64,000 nt of DNA from Escherichia phage vB_EcoM-Ro157lw. The position numbers and the translations under genes are program-made. The notes beneath the pieces are model-generated. The model did no database searches. It was not told the origin of the DNA and saw only the letters and a list, made by a program, of their open reading frames with translations. The DNA lies in sequence record MH051335.1; one strand, 5' to 3'. This document shows positions 11,846 to 21,849 of the stretch, in pieces; position 1 is the first letter of the stretch; every line of letters starts with the position of its first letter.

Positions 11846-12310
11846 GTGAATGCCATGTCATTAGATTACGAAAAGTTCAGAATAAAATTTCCACAGTTTG
11901 CTGATCAGGTAAAATTCCCTGACACAATGCTTCAAGTATTCTATGACATGGCATGTGAATTTATTGAATCACAAGACAGTCCTTGTCGTGTTTTAAATGG
12001 CAGTAAATTGGAGCTGGCATTGGAATATATGACGGCTCATCTTTTATGCATAGCCACAGACCAACAGGTGTCTGTGTCTTCTGGTGACGGAGTTGAACAA
12101 GGCGGCTTCGTGACTGGTGCAACAATCGGTGACATCACCGTGAATAAGGTAGCGCCGCCTGCAAGTGATGGTTGGGAATACTGGCTTTCAAGCACTCCTT
12201 ATGGCATGGCGCTTTGGGCGCTTCTGCAAGCACTGGCTGTCGGCGGCTTGTCGTTTGGCGGTCTTCCAGAGCGCGAAGGATTTCGTAAAATTGGTGGGGT
12301 ATTCTGGTGA
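11846..12310 (+). CDS. head-tail joining protein candidate (154 aa)
   Basis: Gene order only; RBS AAGGTGA. Confidence 0.4.
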   Translation: MNAMSLDYEKFRIKFPQFADQVKFPDTMLQVFYDMACEFIESQDSPCRVLNGSKLELALEYMTAHLLCIATDQQVSVSSGDGVEQGGFVTGATIGDITVNKVAPPASDGWEYWLSSTPYGMALWALLQALAVGGLSFGGLPEREGFRKIGGVFW

Positions 12311-12693
12311 GGATTCCTGGCGTGAACTTATATCGAGTTGCGACAAAGGTCATCGGTCGCCAACCGATTCAATATTACATGTACAAGGGGCGCACTCTTG
12401 ATAAAATGCGCAACTACGTTACCACTTATGAAGAACCAATCACGCTACTTGCTTCGGTGCAGGCTGTTCTTCGAAATCAATACGTCGAGCTTGGATTGGA
12501 GCTTCAAAAGAACTATGTCAAAATCTGGGTAGACAAAGACATTGTTGACCTTGACCGCGACGCTTCCGGCGACTATTTTGTGTTTGGTGGGAAAACGTAT
12601 AAAATGGAAGATGAAACGACATGGTTTGACCAAGATGGTTGGACGACTTGCCTTGCCGTGGAAATAAAACAAAGCTTTCCAGTGTCTACTTGA
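12307..12693 (+). CDS. head-tail joining protein candidate (128 aa)
   Basis: Gene order only; overlapping stop/start with neighbours. Confidence 0.4.
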   Translation: MRIPGVNLYRVATKVIGRQPIQYYMYKGRTLDKMRNYVTTYEEPITLLASVQAVLRNQYVELGLELQKNYVKIWVDKDIVDLDRDASGDYFVFGGKTYKMEDETTWFDQDGWTTCLAVEIKQSFPVST

Positions 12694-12694
12694 G

Positions 12695-13276
12695 GTGTAT
12701 ATGACAGATGTCGACCTGATTGACATGCTGGCAACGCGAATTGAAGAAGGTCTGGCGGCGTATAGTCGTGCAGACCTTTCTGCTGTTCCGGTCCAGAAAA
12801 AGTATCAACCGACTCAACAGGGTATTCCGACTGGTGACCAAATTTGGTTTAACCTTTTATTCTCAGTTCCGTTTGGATGGTCCATGAGGAAAAGTGAATT
12901 TGTCAATGATGAGTCTCAATTTGTAAACGGAAAATTCAAAGATATTGAAGATCAAATATACGCTACACGTTTTCAAATCAGCGGCTTATTTCCAGAAGTT
13001 CCTGGCAATCCAGAAAAGCCTACTGCTAATGACGTATTGACTTATTTGGCAAGATTCATAACTCATAAAGCGAATTTGAGGGATTGGTTCAAAAAGCATC
13101 AGGCATCAGTATATCGAATCGACATGAATAATAATGAAAAGTTTTATGATGACATGTCGCAATTTGAATCATTCCCTTCTTTTGATTTGGTAATACTTCA
13201 CAGAAACGCAATTTCAATTGATACTCCTGCTGTTGCAAGAGCTGTTAATAATGATTTGGGTGATATTCCGGTGTAA
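12695..13276 (+). CDS. hypothetical virion protein (193 aa)
   Basis: Gene order only. Confidence 0.4.
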   Translation: MYMTDVDLIDMLATRIEEGLAAYSRADLSAVPVQKKYQPTQQGIPTGDQIWFNLLFSVPFGWSMRKSEFVNDESQFVNGKFKDIEDQIYATRFQISGLFPEVPGNPEKPTANDVLTYLARFITHKANLRDWFKKHQASVYRIDMNNNEKFYDDMSQFESFPSFDLVILHRNAISIDTPAVARAVNNDLGDIPV

Positions 13277-13775: not shown

Positions 13776-15314
13776 GTGATCAGTCAATCTCGTTATATTA
13801 AAATTGTATCAGGGGTCGGAGCAGGCGCGGCTGTTGCAGTTCGCAAACTGTCGCTTCGCGTCATGACTTCTAATACAGTTCTGCCGCCGGGCATTGTAGC
13901 AGAATTTTCAACGGCTGATGCTGTTGGATCATATTTCGGTTATTCTTCCGAAGAATATAAGCGCGCAGCATTATATTTTGGATTCATCAGCAAGCAAATT
14001 AACTCGCCTGATTCAATCAGCTTCTCGCGTATTGTTTCAACTGCGATTCCAGCAATGGTAATCGGTGATACTGAGCCTAAAGTGCTTGCTACGTTTCAAG
14101 CATTCACTGGCGCTATTTTAAGCATCACTTATGATGGCACAGACTACCTGACTGACGCAATTAACCTTTCAGCGGCAACAAGTCTGGCGAATGTGGCTGA
14201 ACTTCTGGAAACGGCAATCAATACTAAATTTGCAGCAGAAGGTGGCACGTCGGTGCCTGCACTTGCTGATGCAGAAGTGTATTGGAACGCTAATACTCAG
14301 CAGTTCACGCTGGAAGCAGCGCCGTCGACCGCTGGCGCAGGCAACCTGTCTATCAACGTCACAGGCCAACCGACCGACCCGTCTCAAGCATTGGGTTGGA
14401 CCACCACTGGCACCGTAACCGTTGCAGGCCAGGGCGTTTCAAGTCCGGTAGAAGCAATCGCAGCATCTGTGGAAATCTCCAACAACTTCGGCTCATTCCT
14501 TTTTGCTGGGGCTGACCGAACTCTGGAAGAAATTACCGCTGTGGCAGCGTGGAATCATTCGCAGAATAATATGTACATGTATTTATTCTCGACTTCGTTC
14601 GCTAATATCGGGTCATACTACACCGCTCTGAAAGGGTACTCAGGCGTTGGCATGATGATTCGCGCCACTAACCTTGCAAACGATTACATCGACCAAGCGC
14701 CTGCTGAAATCCTCGCGGCGACGAACTATAATACTGTGAATGCGACTCAAAACTACATGTATTATCAGTTTGATACTCGCAACGTGACTGTTTCAACTGA
14801 CTCTCGCGCAGATACTGCTGATCAAAATCGTGCTAACTACATCGGTGCAACTCAGCAGGCCGGACAAACCTTGGCATTCTTCCAGCGCGGCGTATTGATG
14901 GGCGGGTCTACCGCAGCAGTTGACATGAATACTTATGCCAACGAGATGTGGCTTAAATCTGCTATCACTTCTCAGCTGTTCAGCATGTTCTTGAATCTTG
15001 GTCGCGTGCCTGCAAACGAAGAAGGTAAAGCGACTGTACAAGCCATGATTCAAGTTGCTGTTGACAATGCGAAGGTTAACGGCACCATCTCTGTTGGCAA
15101 GGCGCTGACTGAGATTCAGAAACAATACATCACGCAAACTTCCGGTGACAACACTGCTTGGCGGCAGGTTGAAACTATCGGTTACTGGCTGACTGTAGAT
15201 TTTGATACTGAAACCACTTCCGATGGGCGCACCGAATACTATGCAACATACACGCTAATCTACTCTAAAGATGATGCTGTGCGTCGCGTTGAAGGTCGTG
15301 ACGTCCTTATCTAA
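13776..15314 (+). CDS. tail sheath protein
   Basis: 512 aa, GTG start with RBS AAGAGGA; followed by a 155-aa tube-like gene, as in contractile-tail modules. Confidence 0.55.
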   Translation: MISQSRYIKIVSGVGAGAAVAVRKLSLRVMTSNTVLPPGIVAEFSTADAVGSYFGYSSEEYKRAALYFGFISKQINSPDSISFSRIVSTAIPAMVIGDTEPKVLATFQAFTGAILSITYDGTDYLTDAINLSAATSLANVAELLETAINTKFAAEGGTSVPALADAEVYWNANTQQFTLEAAPSTAGAGNLSINVTGQPTDPSQALGWTTTGTVTVAGQGVSSPVEAIAASVEISNNFGSFLFAGADRTLEEITAVAAWNHSQNNMYMYLFSTSFANIGSYYTALKGYSGVGMMIRATNLANDYIDQAPAEILAATNYNTVNATQNYMYYQFDTRNVTVSTDSRADTADQNRANYIGATQQAGQTLAFFQRGVLMGGSTAAVDMNTYANEMWLKSAITSQLFSMFLNLGRVPANEEGKATVQAMIQVAVDNAKVNGTISVGKALTEIQKQYITQTSGDNTAWRQVETIGYWLTVDFDTETTSDGRTEYYATYTLIYSKDDAVRRVEGRDVLI

Positions 15315-15320
15315 ATAATT

Positions 15321-15338
15321 GCCGCCGTAACTGGCGGC
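15321..15338 (+). other. short GC hairpin GCCGCC-GTAACT-GGCGGC between sheath and tube genes
   Basis: 6-bp perfect stem read directly; no U-tract. Confidence 0.3.
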
Positions 15339-15361
15339 CATCTCTCTGAGAGGAATCTGTA

Positions 15362-15829
15362 ATGATTAACGTTTCCGGTTTTGGCGCTTCGATTCGTTTA
15401 GTGGCATCAAACACTTTTCCAAATGGTGTAACTCTTTCTGATTTCGCAGATGATGCTGATCCGATTGACGCGCCTGATCTTCAAATCTCTGAAGCCGCAA
15501 TGGGGTTGAACGGTGACCTGGTAGTCTGGAACCGTGCCAACCCTCTTGAAGTAGGCGTCAACATCATCCCTACTTCTGAAAGCGATGTAAACTTAGATGT
15601 TCTGGCAGCGGCTAACCGTGTAGGCAAGCGCAAGAACTCTGCGAAAGACGTGATCACCCTTATTCTGACCTACCCTTCTGGCATGGTCATCACACTGAAC
15701 AAGGGAACTTTGACGACTGGTTCAGTGATTCCTGGCATCCAGTCTCAGGGTCGTGTAAAAACACGTCAATATCGCTTTAAGTTTGAGAACGTAGTCAAAA
15801 CTGGCGTGAGCAACCAAGAGATTTTATAA
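15362..15829 (+). CDS. tail tube protein
   Basis: 155 aa directly after the sheath; paralogous to 16780-17277. Confidence 0.5.
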   Translation: MINVSGFGASIRLVASNTFPNGVTLSDFADDADPIDAPDLQISEAAMGLNGDLVVWNRANPLEVGVNIIPTSESDVNLDVLAAANRVGKRKNSAKDVITLILTYPSGMVITLNKGTLTTGSVIPGIQSQGRVKTRQYRFKFENVVKTGVSNQEIL

Positions 15830-16158
15830 TGTATCAAATACCACTTGACAGCGTACCTAACCAGAATATCAGCTTTAACGTTGACGGTGCTTATTGGCAG
15901 CTGCACATATTCGCCGCAATTGAGCACATGTGCGCAGATGTTTACCGCAATGGCGAATTGTTGATTCAGGGGGTACGTTGTTTTGGTGGTATACCAATGG
16001 TGCCTTATAAATATCTCATGATTGGGTACGGCAACTTTATTTTTGACAGCGTACCCGATTATGAGCATTTTAACTCTGGCGGCTGTAATTTATATTACAT
16101 GTCAGAATCTGAGTTGGCTGAATTCCAGAAAACTGCTGAAGCGGAGTTTGCAATTTGA
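15829..16158 (+). CDS. hypothetical tail protein (109 aa)
   Basis: Gene order; overlapping start/stop. Confidence 0.4.
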   Translation: MYQIPLDSVPNQNISFNVDGAYWQLHIFAAIEHMCADVYRNGELLIQGVRCFGGIPMVPYKYLMIGYGNFIFDSVPDYEHFNSGGCNLYYMSESELAEFQKTAEAEFAI

Positions 16159-16511
16159 CAACTCTAACGATTGAAGTTAATGATAACAATGACCTGTTTC
16201 TGCCTGATGGAAGAAATTTGAATATTCTGTCAGGAGAAAAGGCCATGGTACAAGTTATCAAGGCGGCGCATCAAATGCGACTTGGTGAAGACTTGTACGA
16301 TGTTGAAAACGGAGTCGATTATTTAGGCACTGTTTTCAAATCGCCCGTTGATGAAGACGGTGCGAGAAAGTCGATTGCAGATGCTATTCTGAAGAAAGCA
16401 GACGTTGCCGGAATCGACTCATTGACTGTCACCATCCAAAACGGTATTCTTGGATTCACCGCTGAAGTGGTGACTATTTATGGCGAACGTATAAAGGTGA
16501 GTAATCAATAA
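16155..16511 (+). CDS. hypothetical tail protein (118 aa)
   Basis: Gene order; overlapping start/stop. Confidence 0.4.
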   Translation: MTTLTIEVNDNNDLFLPDGRNLNILSGEKAMVQVIKAAHQMRLGEDLYDVENGVDYLGTVFKSPVDEDGARKSIADAILKKADVAGIDSLTVTIQNGILGFTAEVVTIYGERIKVSNQ

Positions 16512-16777
16512 TGGCACAAGTAATTCATTTTGCTAATGGCGTCATGAAATTTGGCGAAAAATTTGAAGACGCATCGGAATTATTCAAAAAGACTTCAAAC
16601 CCTGTTGCGGAGAAGAAAGAACAGGTTGAAGAGAAGGCAGTAGAATCGAAAGTTGATTTTGATTCAATGAGCGTCTCTGAATTGAAGGCTTATGCAAAGG
16701 AACATGAGATTGACATCAAAGGTCTTTCTTATAAGGATGAAATTCTTGCAGCAGTTAAATCTGCATCTGCGGAGTAA
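16511..16777 (+). CDS. small protein with C-terminal SAP/Rho-N-like helix-extension-helix motif
   Basis: SVSELKAYAKEHEIDIKGLSYKDEILAAV resembles SAP/Rho_N motifs. Confidence 0.4.
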   Translation: MAQVIHFANGVMKFGEKFEDASELFKKTSNPVAEKKEQVEEKAVESKVDFDSMSVSELKAYAKEHEIDIKGLSYKDEILAAVKSASAE

Positions 16778-16779
16778 AC

Positions 16780-17277
16780 ATGGTCAATATTAGTGGATTT
16801 GGCACAAGCATTAGAATTGTCGCTCTCCAATCTTTTCCTGTTGGGCTGAATATCAGTTCTTTGTCTGATGACCAGGATTCGCTAATTATTGAGGAAGTTG
16901 AATCAGTAGGCTATCAACTTACTTATGACGGCGGCATTTGTATTTATGACAAGGCCGCCGTCGTTCGCGTATCCATTGCAGTGATCCCAAACACTGAAGA
17001 CGACATAAACCTAAAGCTTTTGCTTTCCGCTCGTAAAGGCGGATTCAAGTGGCTTCCTATACAGGATGTCACATCAATGCTTATTACATATCCTGATGGC
17101 GGCAGAGTAGCATTTTCGAACGGGACCATAATCAGCGGTCCGCTTGGCGACTCCATTGAGCAATCCGGTCGTCGTAAGACAAACAGATATACATTTGTGT
17201 TTGCCAGCTACGGCGGCGCACAGAGCACATCACAAATTGCAAAAGGCGTGGTGCAGAGCATATTGGGGTCAATTTAA
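16780..17277 (+). CDS. tail tube-like protein, paralog of 15362-15829
   Basis: N-terminus MVNISGFGTSIRIVALQSFPVGL aligns with MINVSGFGASIRLVASNTFPNGV of the upstream tube gene; similar length. Confidence 0.5.
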   Translation: MVNISGFGTSIRIVALQSFPVGLNISSLSDDQDSLIIEEVESVGYQLTYDGGICIYDKAAVVRVSIAVIPNTEDDINLKLLLSARKGGFKWLPIQDVTSMLITYPDGGRVAFSNGTIISGPLGDSIEQSGRRKTNRYTFVFASYGGAQSTSQIAKGVVQSILGSI

Positions 17278-17810
17278 TGGCTATCGATTTATTGTCATAT
17301 AGTCTTTCCAACAGAAGCTTCACAATAAGAAGCTTCAACCTTGGGGAAGTGTCAACGCTTGGTTGGGCGATTGTTAACGTTAAAATAAGACTCCAAGCAA
17401 AGATATTCAAGAACCAAAGGGAGGATGGAAGCTATATTGTCGATGGCAGGGTCAAAATGCCTAGAATATTGACTGTGACTGTAATAGCACAGACAAAAAG
17501 CGCGTCCGAAGCAATCGCAAAGATGCTGCAAAATAGGTCCACTATATACACAATAAATTCTCGTGGGCTAATATTTGAACGTATGGTGCTGCAAAATAAC
17601 AATTTCAGCCAAGATGCTGACAATATAACTTCACAACCCATACAACTGGTCTTCCACGAGATATTAACACAGCAGGATGTGTCTATTCAAACAGCGCAAG
17701 CAGCCGACTCCACTGTCATTGAGCGCGGCATCGCTTATATAAAAGAGACTACTGCCAGCGTCACTGGCGTTGCAACAAAGGTGATGAATGGCATCAAGGG
17801 GATGCTCTGA
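17277..17810 (+). CDS. hypothetical tail protein (177 aa)
   Basis: Gene order. Confidence 0.4.
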   Translation: MAIDLLSYSLSNRSFTIRSFNLGEVSTLGWAIVNVKIRLQAKIFKNQREDGSYIVDGRVKMPRILTVTVIAQTKSASEAIAKMLQNRSTIYTINSRGLIFERMVLQNNNFSQDADNITSQPIQLVFHEILTQQDVSIQTAQAADSTVIERGIAYIKETTASVTGVATKVMNGIKGML

Positions 17811-18370
17811 TGGACTTTGTTTCGATTCTGCTTTCTGGTCAATCTCTGACCATAACGAATGAGTCGACAGGGCTTCCTGTCTGGACAAGGCTTTCTCCAG
17901 TGTCTGCAGAAATAACATCACCAGCAGAAACTACTCAATTTCCACTTGCTGGAACGGCGATGCAGGTGGTGGAAGTATCAAGCACATCCTCAGTAAGTAA
18001 TTTACAGGCGGCAAAAGTAATAATGCCAGCGCACATGGCGCTAAACGTAATTTGCAACGACCAATCGACTATTGAAAACATAATTAATACATTCGACAAT
18101 GATGAAGTCACATTTTCAATAACTTCTCGAAGCATAATTGCAAGCAAAATGTCGATGTCTGATGTCGAAATAACTCAGTCAGAAGAAAACCTGAATGGAG
18201 TCTCAATTGTAATAACATTTGAACAGACGTCATTTAGTATTCAAGGAAGCTTTGACCCTAAACAGTCCGCAGATGAATCGTCAAATGGCGTGGCTATTAA
18301 AGAGCCAGTCAGTTTGACTACAACTGTGAGTTCGTTATATAATAAAATAAAATCAACAGTAGGAATATAA
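17810..18370 (+). CDS. hypothetical tail protein (186 aa)
   Basis: Gene order. Confidence 0.4.
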   Translation: MDFVSILLSGQSLTITNESTGLPVWTRLSPVSAEITSPAETTQFPLAGTAMQVVEVSSTSSVSNLQAAKVIMPAHMALNVICNDQSTIENIINTFDNDEVTFSITSRSIIASKMSMSDVEITQSEENLNGVSIVITFEQTSFSIQGSFDPKQSADESSNGVAIKEPVSLTTTVSSLYNKIKSTVGI

Positions 18371-18371
18371 A

Positions 18372-18788
18372 ATGAAGATCACCAATAAACAAACCGGTCG
18401 TAAAGTAGAAATTAAAATCAGCAAAATGACTGCGATGGAAGGCTGGAACATCCAGCGCCGATTTATCGAATTTGCAATGTCAAAAGACCCTGCATTCCGT
18501 TCAGAATACACAATGGAAGTATTAAGCTTTGCAAAGGTTGAACTTGATGTCGGGCAAGAAATTCCGCTGAGCACTGGCGCACTTATTGACAACCATCTTG
18601 GCGACTGGGAAAACTTGAAATTGGTTTTCGAAGCGGTGTTGATGGAAAACGGAATCAACCCAGAGACTCACGCTGAACGTGAAGGATACTGGGAACAAGC
18701 CGGCGGCGAAATGGCTGCAGCATTTATTGGCGAATCGATGCGATTAATCGCGCCATTCCTCAGCGGCGAGACTCCAAACAAGGGGTAA
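18372..18788 (+). CDS. tail assembly chaperone candidate
   Basis: 138-aa acidic protein immediately upstream of the tape measure gene; positional inference only. Confidence 0.4.
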   Translation: MKITNKQTGRKVEIKISKMTAMEGWNIQRRFIEFAMSKDPAFRSEYTMEVLSFAKVELDVGQEIPLSTGALIDNHLGDWENLKLVFEAVLMENGINPETHAEREGYWEQAGGEMAAAFIGESMRLIAPFLSGETPNKG

Positions 18789-20976: not shown

Positions 20977-21849
20977 TTGAAAAAGAGAATCCTTAAGGTC
21001 ACCTTATCTATGCCGGATGGCACAAGCCAAGTTCTTGATGAAGGATTGATGCTCAGATGCCGAATCAAAAAGGCAGCACTTTCCGTTCAGAATAAGGCCA
21101 CGATTGAAGTCGCAGGATTAACAGGGTACTTGAGAGAGTACCTGCTTTCCAACTTCACGGCATTCAACAAACGTCTGCGTGATCAAGGTCAGTTGGCGGC
21201 GAACTACGTTAATGTGACTATTGAAGCTGGATACAGAGAAGGGAGCGTAATCAGCAGCAACTTGGTATACAAGGGACAGGTGACTACGGTGGAGATAACA
21301 GCGCCGCCGCCGAATATCGTCATCAGAATCACGTGTTATACAAACCAAATAAACAGAACGAAGTTCATAACTCAAGCCGCGCCATCCAACCCGACTTTCA
21401 AAGAGTTTGTGGAATGGTCTGCAAAGCAAATGGACATTGATACTGTTATTTGCGACACGTCGATTAACAATCAGCGCCTTGTAAACCCAGGAAGAACGAC
21501 ATATGTTGCTGCTGCGCTGCTGCTTGAGATCCAGAACTATCAACGCAACTCCATCGCGGCATACATTGATGACGATACGTTAATTGTTAAGGATAAAGAC
21601 AAAATTCTAAATCCAGACCAGATTACGGTCATTGAGGAATTTGTCGGAATACCGATGTGGAACGAGTGGGGTGCAGACTTCACTTGTATGTATAACGCAG
21701 ATTTGAAGCTTGCACAAGGTGTTAAATTCAAATCAGTCTTAAACCCAAGCTTGAACGACACCACATTTGTCATCATGCAACTTGAATATGATTTAGCGAG
21801 TCGTGATGACATATTTACGGTGACGGGCGGCGTTGCACCATCGGCATAA
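20977..21849 (+). CDS. baseplate / distal tail protein candidate (290 aa)
   Basis: Gene order after the tape measure; TTG start with RBS. Confidence 0.4.
   Translation: MKKRILKVTLSMPDGTSQVLDEGLMLRCRIKKAALSVQNKATIEVAGLTGYLREYLLSNFTAFNKRLRDQGQLAANYVNVTIEAGYREGSVISSNLVYKGQVTTVEITAPPPNIVIRITCYTNQINRTKFITQAAPSNPTFKEFVEWSAKQMDIDTVICDTSINNQRLVNPGRTTYVAAALLLEIQNYQRNSIAAYIDDDTLIVKDKDKILNPDQITVIEEFVGIPMWNEWGADFTCMYNADLKLAQGVKFKSVLNPSLNDTTFVIMQLEYDLASRDDIFTVTGGVAPSA

What the first reader, a model, noticed from the sequence alone, without database searches (positions are those of the whole stretch)
15362..17277. Two paralogous tail-tube-like genes separated by three small ORFs
The proteins at 15362-15829 and 16780-17277 share a clearly alignable N-terminus (M-x-N-[VI]-SGFG-x-SIR-[LI]-VA) and similar length. 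Contractile tails normally have one tube protein; a second copy may form the tube initiator or baseplate-proximal ring, or be a recent duplication.
Basis: seen in the sequence. Interest (0 to 1): 0.4.

Follow-up and report, generated by a model that had tools for sequence, protein, structure and literature searches.

The report
Tail tube and baseplate-tube paralogues
The two similar genes are the tail tube protein and its old duplicate, the "baseplate tube", which forms one ring at the bottom of the tube; relatives of this E. coli phage already have solved structures showing this, so the finding is real but ordinary.

Summary
ORFs 15362-15829 (155 aa) and 16780-17277 (165 aa) align without gaps over 143 residues (33% identity, E 2e-32). 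Both belong to Pfam PF22764.

The window is a Wifcevirus-type E. coli myophage, 99% identical in DNA to ECP_WGS_SA1 and vB_EcoM_WFH. These phages are distant relatives of the Pseudomonas Pbunaviruses E217 and Pa193, whose virions have been solved by cryo-EM.

- The first ORF is the orthologue of the tail tube (Pa193 gp33, E217 gp32; E 1.9e-48).
- The second is the orthologue of the "baseplate tube" or "tail tube-B" (Pa193 gp37, E217 gp36; E 1.1e-52). This protein forms a single hexameric ring between the tube and the baseplate cap.
- Two of the three ORFs in between are baseplate adaptors: the helical-bundle/plug protein and the sheath initiator. The third is a non-conserved 88-aa protein that is not in the solved models.

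The duplication is ancient, not recent. Orthologues across four genera share 43-59% identity, paralogues 25-39%, and the two genes are 46% identical in DNA.

It is already known, so interest is low.

The parts
13776..15314 (+). Tail sheath (context; gene immediately upstream of the tube gene)
   Evidence: Pfam DUF3383 2.3e-120 and PHROG 205 'tail sheath'. 53-55% identical to the sheaths of SN, BcepF1 and MTx.
15321..15338 (.). GC-rich perfect hairpin GCCGCCgtaactGGCGGC in the sheath-tube intergenic spacer, followed by a GAGAGG ribosome-binding site for the tube gene
   Evidence: Its function (mRNA stabiliser or processing site) is inferred only. There is no T-run on the + strand.
15362..15829 (+). 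Tail tube protein (orthologue of E217 gp32 / Pa193 gp33)
   Evidence: PDB 9b42_M 'gp33 Tail tube' 1.9e-48 over residues 1-150; 8fuv_T 5.8e-42. PF22764 2.8e-60. 53% identical to the SN/Pa193 tube.
15829..16158 (+). Baseplate adaptor, 'helical bundle' or plug (orthologue of E217 gp33 / Pa193 gp34; Pam3 gp18 family)
   Evidence: PDB 9b45_A 7.1e-26 and 8env_G 1.4e-25. Pfam Pam3_gp18 4.8e-16.
16155..16511 (+). Sheath initiator (orthologue of E217 gp34 / Pa193 gp35); TTG start
   Evidence: PDB 9b45_G 'gp35 Sheath initiator' 4.6e-23, residues 1-111 aligned to 1-111; 8env_H 1.3e-21. PHROG 120 7.1e-21.
16511..16777 (+). 88-aa ORF in the 'gp35 slot': conserved position, non-conserved sequence, weak HeH/SAP/Rho_N-like matches at the C-terminus; not part of the solved virion models
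   Evidence: No PDB match. Weak Pfam SAP, Rho_N and DUF6887 hits at residues 47-87. PHROG 10541 1.1e-28. No BLASTP match to the ORF in the same slot of MTx, BcepF1 or SN.
16780..17277 (+). Baseplate tube / 'tail tube-B' (orthologue of E217 gp36 / Pa193 gp37): single hexameric ring under the tube. It carries a tube-B-specific C-terminal extension (about residues 145-165)
   Evidence: PDB 9b45_M 'gp37 Baseplate tube' 1.1e-52 over residues 1-162; 8env_I 2.2e-49. PF22764 1.9e-53. 51-59% identical to tube-B of SN, BcepF1 and MTx. The C-terminal extension is conserved in all four tube-B proteins and absent from all tubes.
17277..17810 (+). Ripcord-1 (orthologue of E217 gp37 / Pa193 gp38), one half of the heterohexamer below the tube-B ring
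   Evidence: PDB 9b45_S 2e-19 and 8eon_A 5.6e-19. Pfam Gp38_E217 and Dit_like.
17810..18370 (+). Ripcord-2 (orthologue of E217 gp38 / Pa193 gp39), paralogue of ripcord-1
   Evidence: PDB 9b45_V 5.1e-27 and 8eon_D 6.5e-27. Pfam Gp38_E217 1.9e-72. 24% identical to ripcord-1, E 4e-6.
20977..21849 (+). Tail hub (orthologue of E217 gp41 / Pa193 gp42), trimer below the ripcords
   Evidence: PDB 8eon_E 9.3e-86, residues 1-283 aligned to 1-280. Pfam E217_GP41 1.4e-118.

Best explanation
The window carries the tail and baseplate module of a Wifcevirus-type E. coli myophage, built on the same plan as the Pseudomonas Pbunaviruses E217 and Pa193. ORF 15362-15829 is the tail tube protein, which polymerises as stacked hexameric rings along the whole tail (34 rings, 204 copies, in E217 and Pa193). 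ORF 16780-17277 is an ancient paralogue specialised as the 'baseplate tube' (tail tube-B). Six copies form one ring coaxial with the tube. On its distal face that ring sits on the threefold (ripcord-1/ripcord-2)3 heterohexamer, which in turn sits on the trimeric hub and tail tip. Its proximal face presents a tube-like surface on which the first true tube ring stacks. It therefore links the sixfold repetitive tube to the symmetry-reducing baseplate cap, and it most likely acts as the template on which tube polymerisation starts. Its tube-B-specific C-terminal extension is inferred to reach outward to the sheath-initiator adaptor, as the Pa193 paper describes for gp37. Shown here: homology, orthology, synteny and the age of the duplication. 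Taken from the published structures of orthologues: ring position, copy number and contacts. Inferred: that the Wifcevirus proteins do the same, and that the ring nucleates the tube.
For: Paralogy: 33% identity over 143 residues, E 2e-32; both in PF22764. Orthology to solved chains is reciprocal and unambiguous. ORF1 scores 1.9e-48 against the tube and 3.4e-25 against the baseplate tube. ORF2 scores 1.1e-52 against the baseplate tube and 1.4e-21 against the tube. All neighbours map one-to-one and in the same order onto the E217/Pa193 cap and adaptor proteins. The ten-gene order from sheath to tape measure is identical in Wifcevirus, Myosmarvirus MTx, Bcepfunavirus BcepF1 and Pbunavirus SN. A neighbour-joining tree separates a tube clade from a tube-B clade, and each clade holds all four genera. 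379 phage records give 735 matching places, so two copies is the rule. The published cryo-EM descriptions place gp36/gp37 as a hexameric ring with a tube-like fold (RMSD 3.6-4.2 A to the tube) between the tube and the gp37/gp38 heterohexamer. Paralogue divergence is greatest at residues 31-60 (2 of 20 identical). That stretch corresponds to the beta-hairpin loop that makes the contacts between tube subunits in E217 and Pa193, as expected if the ring below has changed partner. The BASEL paper states that Wifcevirus structural genes were annotated from the Pbunavirus cryo-EM structure on the basis of clear homology.
Against: No Wifcevirus virion structure or proteome was examined here, so position and copy number are transferred from orthologues that are 51-53% identical. 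My own structure prediction failed (pLDDT 29 with a two-sequence alignment), so the fold rests on sequence homology to solved chains. The 'nucleates tube polymerisation' step is an inference from position. In the minimal myophage Pam3 the protein called tube initiator is of the Dit-like/ripcord type, not a close tube paralogue.
Confidence: 0.93

Rival explanations
1. A recent tandem-like duplication of the tube gene, giving two redundant or alternative tube subunits.
For: Similar length and a strikingly similar N-terminus (13 of the first 20 residues identical).
Against: Nucleotide identity is 45.7%. The shared Ser5, Ser10 and Arg12 use different codon families (TCC/AGT, TCG/AGC, CGT/AGA), so there has been no recent duplication or gene conversion. 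Each copy is much closer to its orthologue in other genera (43-59%) than to its paralogue (25-39%). Tube-B has its own conserved C-terminal extension.
Confidence: 0.01
2. The second copy is a minor tube subunit that copolymerises with the major tube, or caps the tube at the head-proximal end like a terminator, rather than forming the baseplate-proximal ring.
For: The tube fold is also used at other junctions. This work contains no direct Wifcevirus structural data.
Against: Orthologues in E217 and Pa193 are seen only as one ring at the baseplate end. The head-proximal end is served by separate collar and gateway proteins, whose orthologues are present in the window: 12307-12693 (PF22755 E217_gp28) and 12695-13276 (PF22756 E217_gp29). 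The gene sits among baseplate-cap genes in conserved order.
Confidence: 0.04
3. The similarity is chance or a compositional artefact, and one of the ORFs is not a gene.
For: None.
Against: E 2e-32. Both proteins are 100% or nearly 100% conserved in other Wifcevirus isolates and have orthologues in hundreds of phages. Both have solved-structure homologues.
Confidence: 0

Closest known systems
Pseudomonas phage Pa193 gp33 (tail tube) and gp37 (baseplate tube), PDB 9b42/9b45; E217 gp32 and gp36 ('tail tube-B'), PDB 8fuv/8env/8eon
   Same: Full-length orthologues (1.9e-48 and 1.1e-52; about 53% and 51% identity). Same Pfam family. Same gene order, with the same adaptor genes between the two copies and the same ripcord, hub and tip genes after them. 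Same tube-B C-terminal extension.
   Different: Different host (E. coli/Shigella rather than Pseudomonas) and genus (Wifcevirus). About half the residues differ. The ORF in the gp35 slot is unrelated in sequence. The number of tube rings in Wifcevirus is not known.
Cyanophage Pam3 tube gp14 and tube initiator gp17 (minimal myophage, PMC9942802)
   Same: A tube-fold hexameric ring between hub and tube starts the tube. The plug (Pam3 gp18 family) and a sheath initiator are shared components.
   Different: Pam3 has one initiator ring, a homohexamer with a C-terminal helical domain. Its Dit-like assignment is my inference by analogy with Bordetella phage IFTN1: the Dit_like Pfam hits were obtained on the window's ripcords and on IFTN1, and Pam3 gp17 itself was not scanned. 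The Pbunavirus/Wifcevirus plan has two layers instead: a ripcord-1/ripcord-2 heterohexamer plus an extra ring made of a close tube paralogue (tube-B). IFTN1, which has the same sheath, tube and hub families, has the simple Pam3-like arrangement with one PF22764 gene.
T4 gp19 (tube) with gp48/gp54 (baseplate-tube junction proteins)
   Same: From my own knowledge of the T4 baseplate structure (Taylor et al. 2016), not tested here: tube-fold proteins form rings between the central hub and the first gp19 ring and act as tube initiators.
   Different: No detectable sequence relationship was found or tested here. T4 has a far more complex baseplate.

Membership tests
Pfam PF22764 (E217_Gp32; the tube-fold family of Pbunavirus-like myophages) | Score above the curated gathering threshold (27 bits) over the full profile | tested here: met
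   202.5 bits over profile positions 1-143/144 for ORF 15362; 180.4 bits over positions 2-143/144 for ORF 16780.
Tail tube orthologue group (E217 gp32 / Pa193 gp33) | Best match to the tube chain rather than the baseplate-tube chain; position immediately after the sheath gene; no C-terminal extension | tested here: met
   ORF 15362 scores 1.9e-48 against the tube and 3.4e-25 against the baseplate tube. It follows the sheath gene after a 47-nt spacer. It groups with the tube clade.
Baseplate tube / tail tube-B orthologue group (E217 gp36 / Pa193 gp37) | Best match to the baseplate-tube chain; position directly upstream of ripcord-1 and ripcord-2; conserved C-terminal extension beyond the tube core | tested here: met
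   ORF 16780 scores 1.1e-52 against the baseplate tube and 1.4e-21 against the tube. Its stop overlaps the start of ripcord-1 at 17277. The C-terminal motif, roughly GAQ followed by ~10-11 variable residues and then Q-[SN]-[IV]-L, is shared by all four tube-B proteins and absent from all tubes.
Baseplate tube / tail tube-B orthologue group | Tube-like beta-sandwich fold | tested here: inconclusive
   AlphaFold2 with only the two window paralogues as the alignment gave pLDDT 29.4, which is unusable. The fold is inferred from about 51% identity over 162 residues to solved chains.
Baseplate tube / tail tube-B orthologue group | Single hexameric ring (6 copies per virion) between the tube and the ripcord heterohexamer | not testable with these tools
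   Known for E217 and Pa193 from cryo-EM. It needs a Wifcevirus virion structure or quantitative proteomics.

The most novel reading that the evidence does not exclude
The two-layer cap (an extra tube-B ring plus a split ripcord-1/ripcord-2 ring, with the plug and sheath-initiator genes moved between the two tube genes) may be a single derived elaboration of the simpler Pam3/IFTN1-type plan, arising at the base of the Pbunavirus/Wifcevirus/Myosmarvirus/Bcepfunavirus supergroup. Within it, the one slot that is conserved in position but not in sequence (16511-16777, here with an HeH/SAP-like C-terminus) would encode a lineage-specific assembly factor or ejected protein of unknown role. The Wifcevirus-specific sharing of S-I-R at positions 10-12 in both paralogues would reflect co-evolution with a common partner such as the tape measure protein.
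Probability: 0.15. Interest if true: 0.25.

Novelty: already known. Interest (0 to 1): 0.08.

Why it matters
It matters little beyond correct annotation. Both proteins are 98-100% identical to deposited Wifcevirus proteins, and their roles follow from the solved E217 and Pa193 virions. The practical value is in correcting database labels: many GenBank, RefSeq and PHROG records call the tube, tube-B and both ripcords 'tail fiber protein' or 'hypothetical protein'. The comparison also gives a clean example of how a contractile-tail baseplate cap grows more complex by duplicating tube-fold genes.

Tried and rejected
1. Structure prediction of ORF 16780 with an alignment of only the two window paralogues gave mean pLDDT 29.4 and pTM 0.22. 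The model was unusable, so no fold search was run.
2. A literature search for 'E217 + ripcord + gp36' found nothing. Broader terms found the E217 and Pa193 papers.
3. Gene conversion as the cause of the highly similar N-termini was rejected on codon evidence.
4. An intrinsic terminator after the tube gene, which could explain the tube to tube-B stoichiometry, was not found. No convincing site lies between 15829 and 16780. The predicted sites are within the number expected from shuffles (9 found against 5.2 +/- 2.2).
5. A PDB search for the 88-aa ORF returned only chance-level hits.
6. A second diverged PF22764 copy was looked for in the tail module of Bordetella phage IFTN1 and none was found.
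7. I deliberately did not spend the large protein-database searches, because the verdict does not depend on them.

Full report
**What is there.** The ORF list shows a tightly packed + strand gene array typical of a myophage tail module. The two ORFs of the finding are at exactly the stated coordinates: 15362-15829 (155 aa) and 16780-17277 (165 aa). BLASTP of one against the other gives 47/143 identities (33%), 61% positives, no gaps and E = 2e-32. Both match Pfam PF22764 (E217_Gp32) end to end (2.8e-60 and 1.9e-53) and PHROG 2420.

**Which phage.** The 4.6-kb stretch 13776-18370 is 97.8-99.1% identical in DNA to the 15 best-matching Wifcevirus isolates, including Escherichia phages ECP_WGS_SA1, AV128, vB_EcoM_WFH, FEC19 and ECML-117 (28 records match in all, eight of them at only 80-90%). 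The 165-aa protein is 100% identical to those of ECML-117, FEC19 and ECP_WGS_SA1. The BASEL-completion paper states that Wifcevirus phages are distant relatives of Pbunavirus. It also says the cryo-EM structure of a Pbunavirus was used to annotate their structural genes.

**What the two proteins are.** Sequence searches against the PDB give reciprocal, unambiguous orthology.
- ORF 15362 matches Pa193 gp33 'Tail tube' (9b42_M, 1.9e-48, residues 1-150 to 1-150) and E217 gp32 (8fuv_T, 5.8e-42). It matches the baseplate-tube chains much more weakly (about 4e-25).
- ORF 16780 matches Pa193 gp37 'Baseplate tube' (9b45_M, 1.1e-52, residues 1-162 to 1-164) and E217 gp36 (8env_I, 2.2e-49). It matches the tube chains more weakly (1.4e-21 and 3.2e-16).
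- The E217 paper describes gp36 ('tail tube-B') as similar to the tube gp32 (RMSD 3.6 A). It forms a hexameric ring concentric with the tube and provides the attachment surface for three gp37/gp38 heterodimers, below which sit the trimeric hub gp41 and the tip gp43.
- The Pa193 paper says the same for gp37 (RMSD 4.2 A to the tube).
- Both phages have 34 tube rings (204 copies) and one tube-B ring.

**The genes in between and around.**
- 15829-16158 is the orthologue of E217 gp33 / Pa193 gp34 (helical-bundle adaptor, Pam3 plug family).
- 16155-16511 is the sheath initiator (E217 gp34 / Pa193 gp35). It aligns from residue 1, which supports the TTG start at 16155.
- 16511-16777 (88 aa) has no PDB match and only weak HeH/SAP/Rho_N-type Pfam hits at its C-terminus. 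The papers do not list its Pbunavirus counterpart among the modelled proteins.
- Downstream, 17277-17810 and 17810-18370 are ripcord-1 and ripcord-2. They form a second, more diverged paralogue pair (24% identity, E 4e-6).
- 20977-21849 is the hub.
- Upstream, the collar and gateway orthologues are present.

The window therefore reproduces the E217/Pa193 tail plan gene for gene.

**Age of the duplication.** I fetched the same region from Serratia phage MTx (Myosmarvirus), Burkholderia phage BcepF1 (Bcepfunavirus) and Pseudomonas phage SN (Pbunavirus).
- The ten-gene order from sheath to tape measure is identical in all of them.
- Tube orthologues are 43-57% identical and tube-B orthologues 48-59%. 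Paralogues, within or between phages, are 25-39% identical.
- A neighbour-joining tree gives two clean clades, each holding all four genera.
- All tube-B proteins share a C-terminal extension that no tube has.
- In the window the two genes are 45.7% identical in DNA. The shared Ser and Arg residues of the N-terminal motif use different codon families, which excludes recent duplication or gene conversion.
- tblastn finds 379 phage records with 735 matching places, so two copies per genome is the rule across Pseudomonas, Escherichia, Burkholderia and Serratia phages. Vibrio, Xanthomonas, Pantoea and Erwinia phages also have matches, but their copy number was not inspected.
- The least conserved stretch between the paralogues is residues 31-60 (2 of 20 identical). 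It corresponds to the extended beta-turn or loop that makes the contacts between tube subunits in E217 and Pa193. That fits a ring whose distal partner has changed.

**Comparison with simpler relatives.** Bordetella phage IFTN1 (40 kb) has the same sheath (DUF3383), tube (PF22764), plug and hub (E217_GP41) families. It has only one PF22764 gene and one Dit-like gene, in the canonical order sheath, tube, an unassigned 141-aa ORF in the position where myophages usually encode the tail assembly chaperone, tape measure, Dit-like, plug, hub, spike. This is the plan of the minimal myophage Pam3, where a homohexameric tube initiator gp17 sits directly between hub and tube. The Pbunavirus/Wifcevirus plan thus looks like an elaboration. 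The initiator is split into two paralogues and an extra ring made of a tube paralogue is inserted. This direction of evolution is my inference.

**Mechanism.** Most likely (confidence about 0.93), six copies of the 16780 product form the baseplate-proximal ring that adapts the sixfold tube to the threefold cap and offers the surface on which the first ring of the 15362 product stacks. The tube-B C-terminal extension probably reaches the sheath initiator, as reported for Pa193 gp37. Expression differences are not obvious from the sequence. The tube gene has its own spacer with a GAGAGG ribosome-binding site preceded by a GC hairpin. Tube-B starts 2 nt after the preceding stop codon, with a GGAG 6 nt upstream of its ATG. 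No convincing terminator lies between them.

**Limits.** No Wifcevirus virion structure or proteome was available. My AlphaFold run with a two-sequence alignment failed (pLDDT 29). Fold, position and copy number are therefore transferred from orthologues that are 51-53% identical.

**Verdict.** Interest is low.

Noticed in passing
window 17277-17810 and 17810-18370: A second adjacent paralogue pair, ripcord-1 and ripcord-2 (E217 gp37/gp38), both in Pfam Gp38_E217/Dit_like and 24% identical (E 4e-6). In E217 and Pa193 they form the threefold heterohexamer directly under the tube-B ring.
   Followed up: yes
window 16511-16777: The 88-aa ORF between the sheath initiator and tube-B is the only gene of the ten-gene sheath-to-tape-measure module with no BLASTP match in MTx, BcepF1 or SN. 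Only a short N-terminal motif (I-x-F-x-N-G-V/T-like) is shared. The rest is of variable length (71-143 aa) and acidic or Pro-rich in the other genera. Here it carries weak HeH/SAP/Rho_N-like hits. It is absent from the solved virion models.
   Followed up: partly
window 16155 and 20977 (L001 9470 and 14235): The RefSeq annotation of vB_EcoM_WFH starts the sheath-initiator gene 30 codons late (ATG at window 16245) and the hub gene 11 codons late (21010). Alignments to the solved Pa193/E217 chains begin at residue 1 of the longer TTG-initiated ORFs.
   Followed up: partly
window 15362-18370 and database records: The tube, tube-B and both ripcords are widely labelled 'tail fiber protein' (PHROG 2420 and 2580, the Pfam PF22764 description, many RefSeq records). 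This is a propagated misnomer; none of them is a fibre.
   Followed up: yes
window 15321-15338: A perfect 6-bp GC hairpin (GCCGCC gtaact GGCGGC) lies in the 47-nt spacer between the sheath and tube genes. There is no T-run on the + strand. It may be an mRNA stability or processing element.
   Followed up: no
window 15389-15397 and 16807-16815 (residues 10-12 of both paralogues): Both Wifcevirus paralogues have S-I-R at positions 10-12. In MTx, BcepF1 and SN these positions differ between the paralogues and among the orthologues. The codons differ, so the match is at the protein level (convergence, co-evolution or chance).
   Followed up: partly
L005 (Bordetella phage vB_BaM-IFTN1) 3433-10330: This 40-kb phage has the same sheath, tube, plug and hub families but a single tube gene and a single Dit-like gene, in the canonical Pam3-like order. 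It represents the simpler plan from which the two-layer cap may derive.
   Followed up: partly
window 18372-18788: A 138-aa ORF lies directly upstream of the tape-measure/SLT gene. It is conserved (46-52% identity) in all four genera and belongs to PHROG 4627, of unknown function. Its position suggests a tail assembly chaperone. No frameshift signal was looked for systematically.
   Followed up: no
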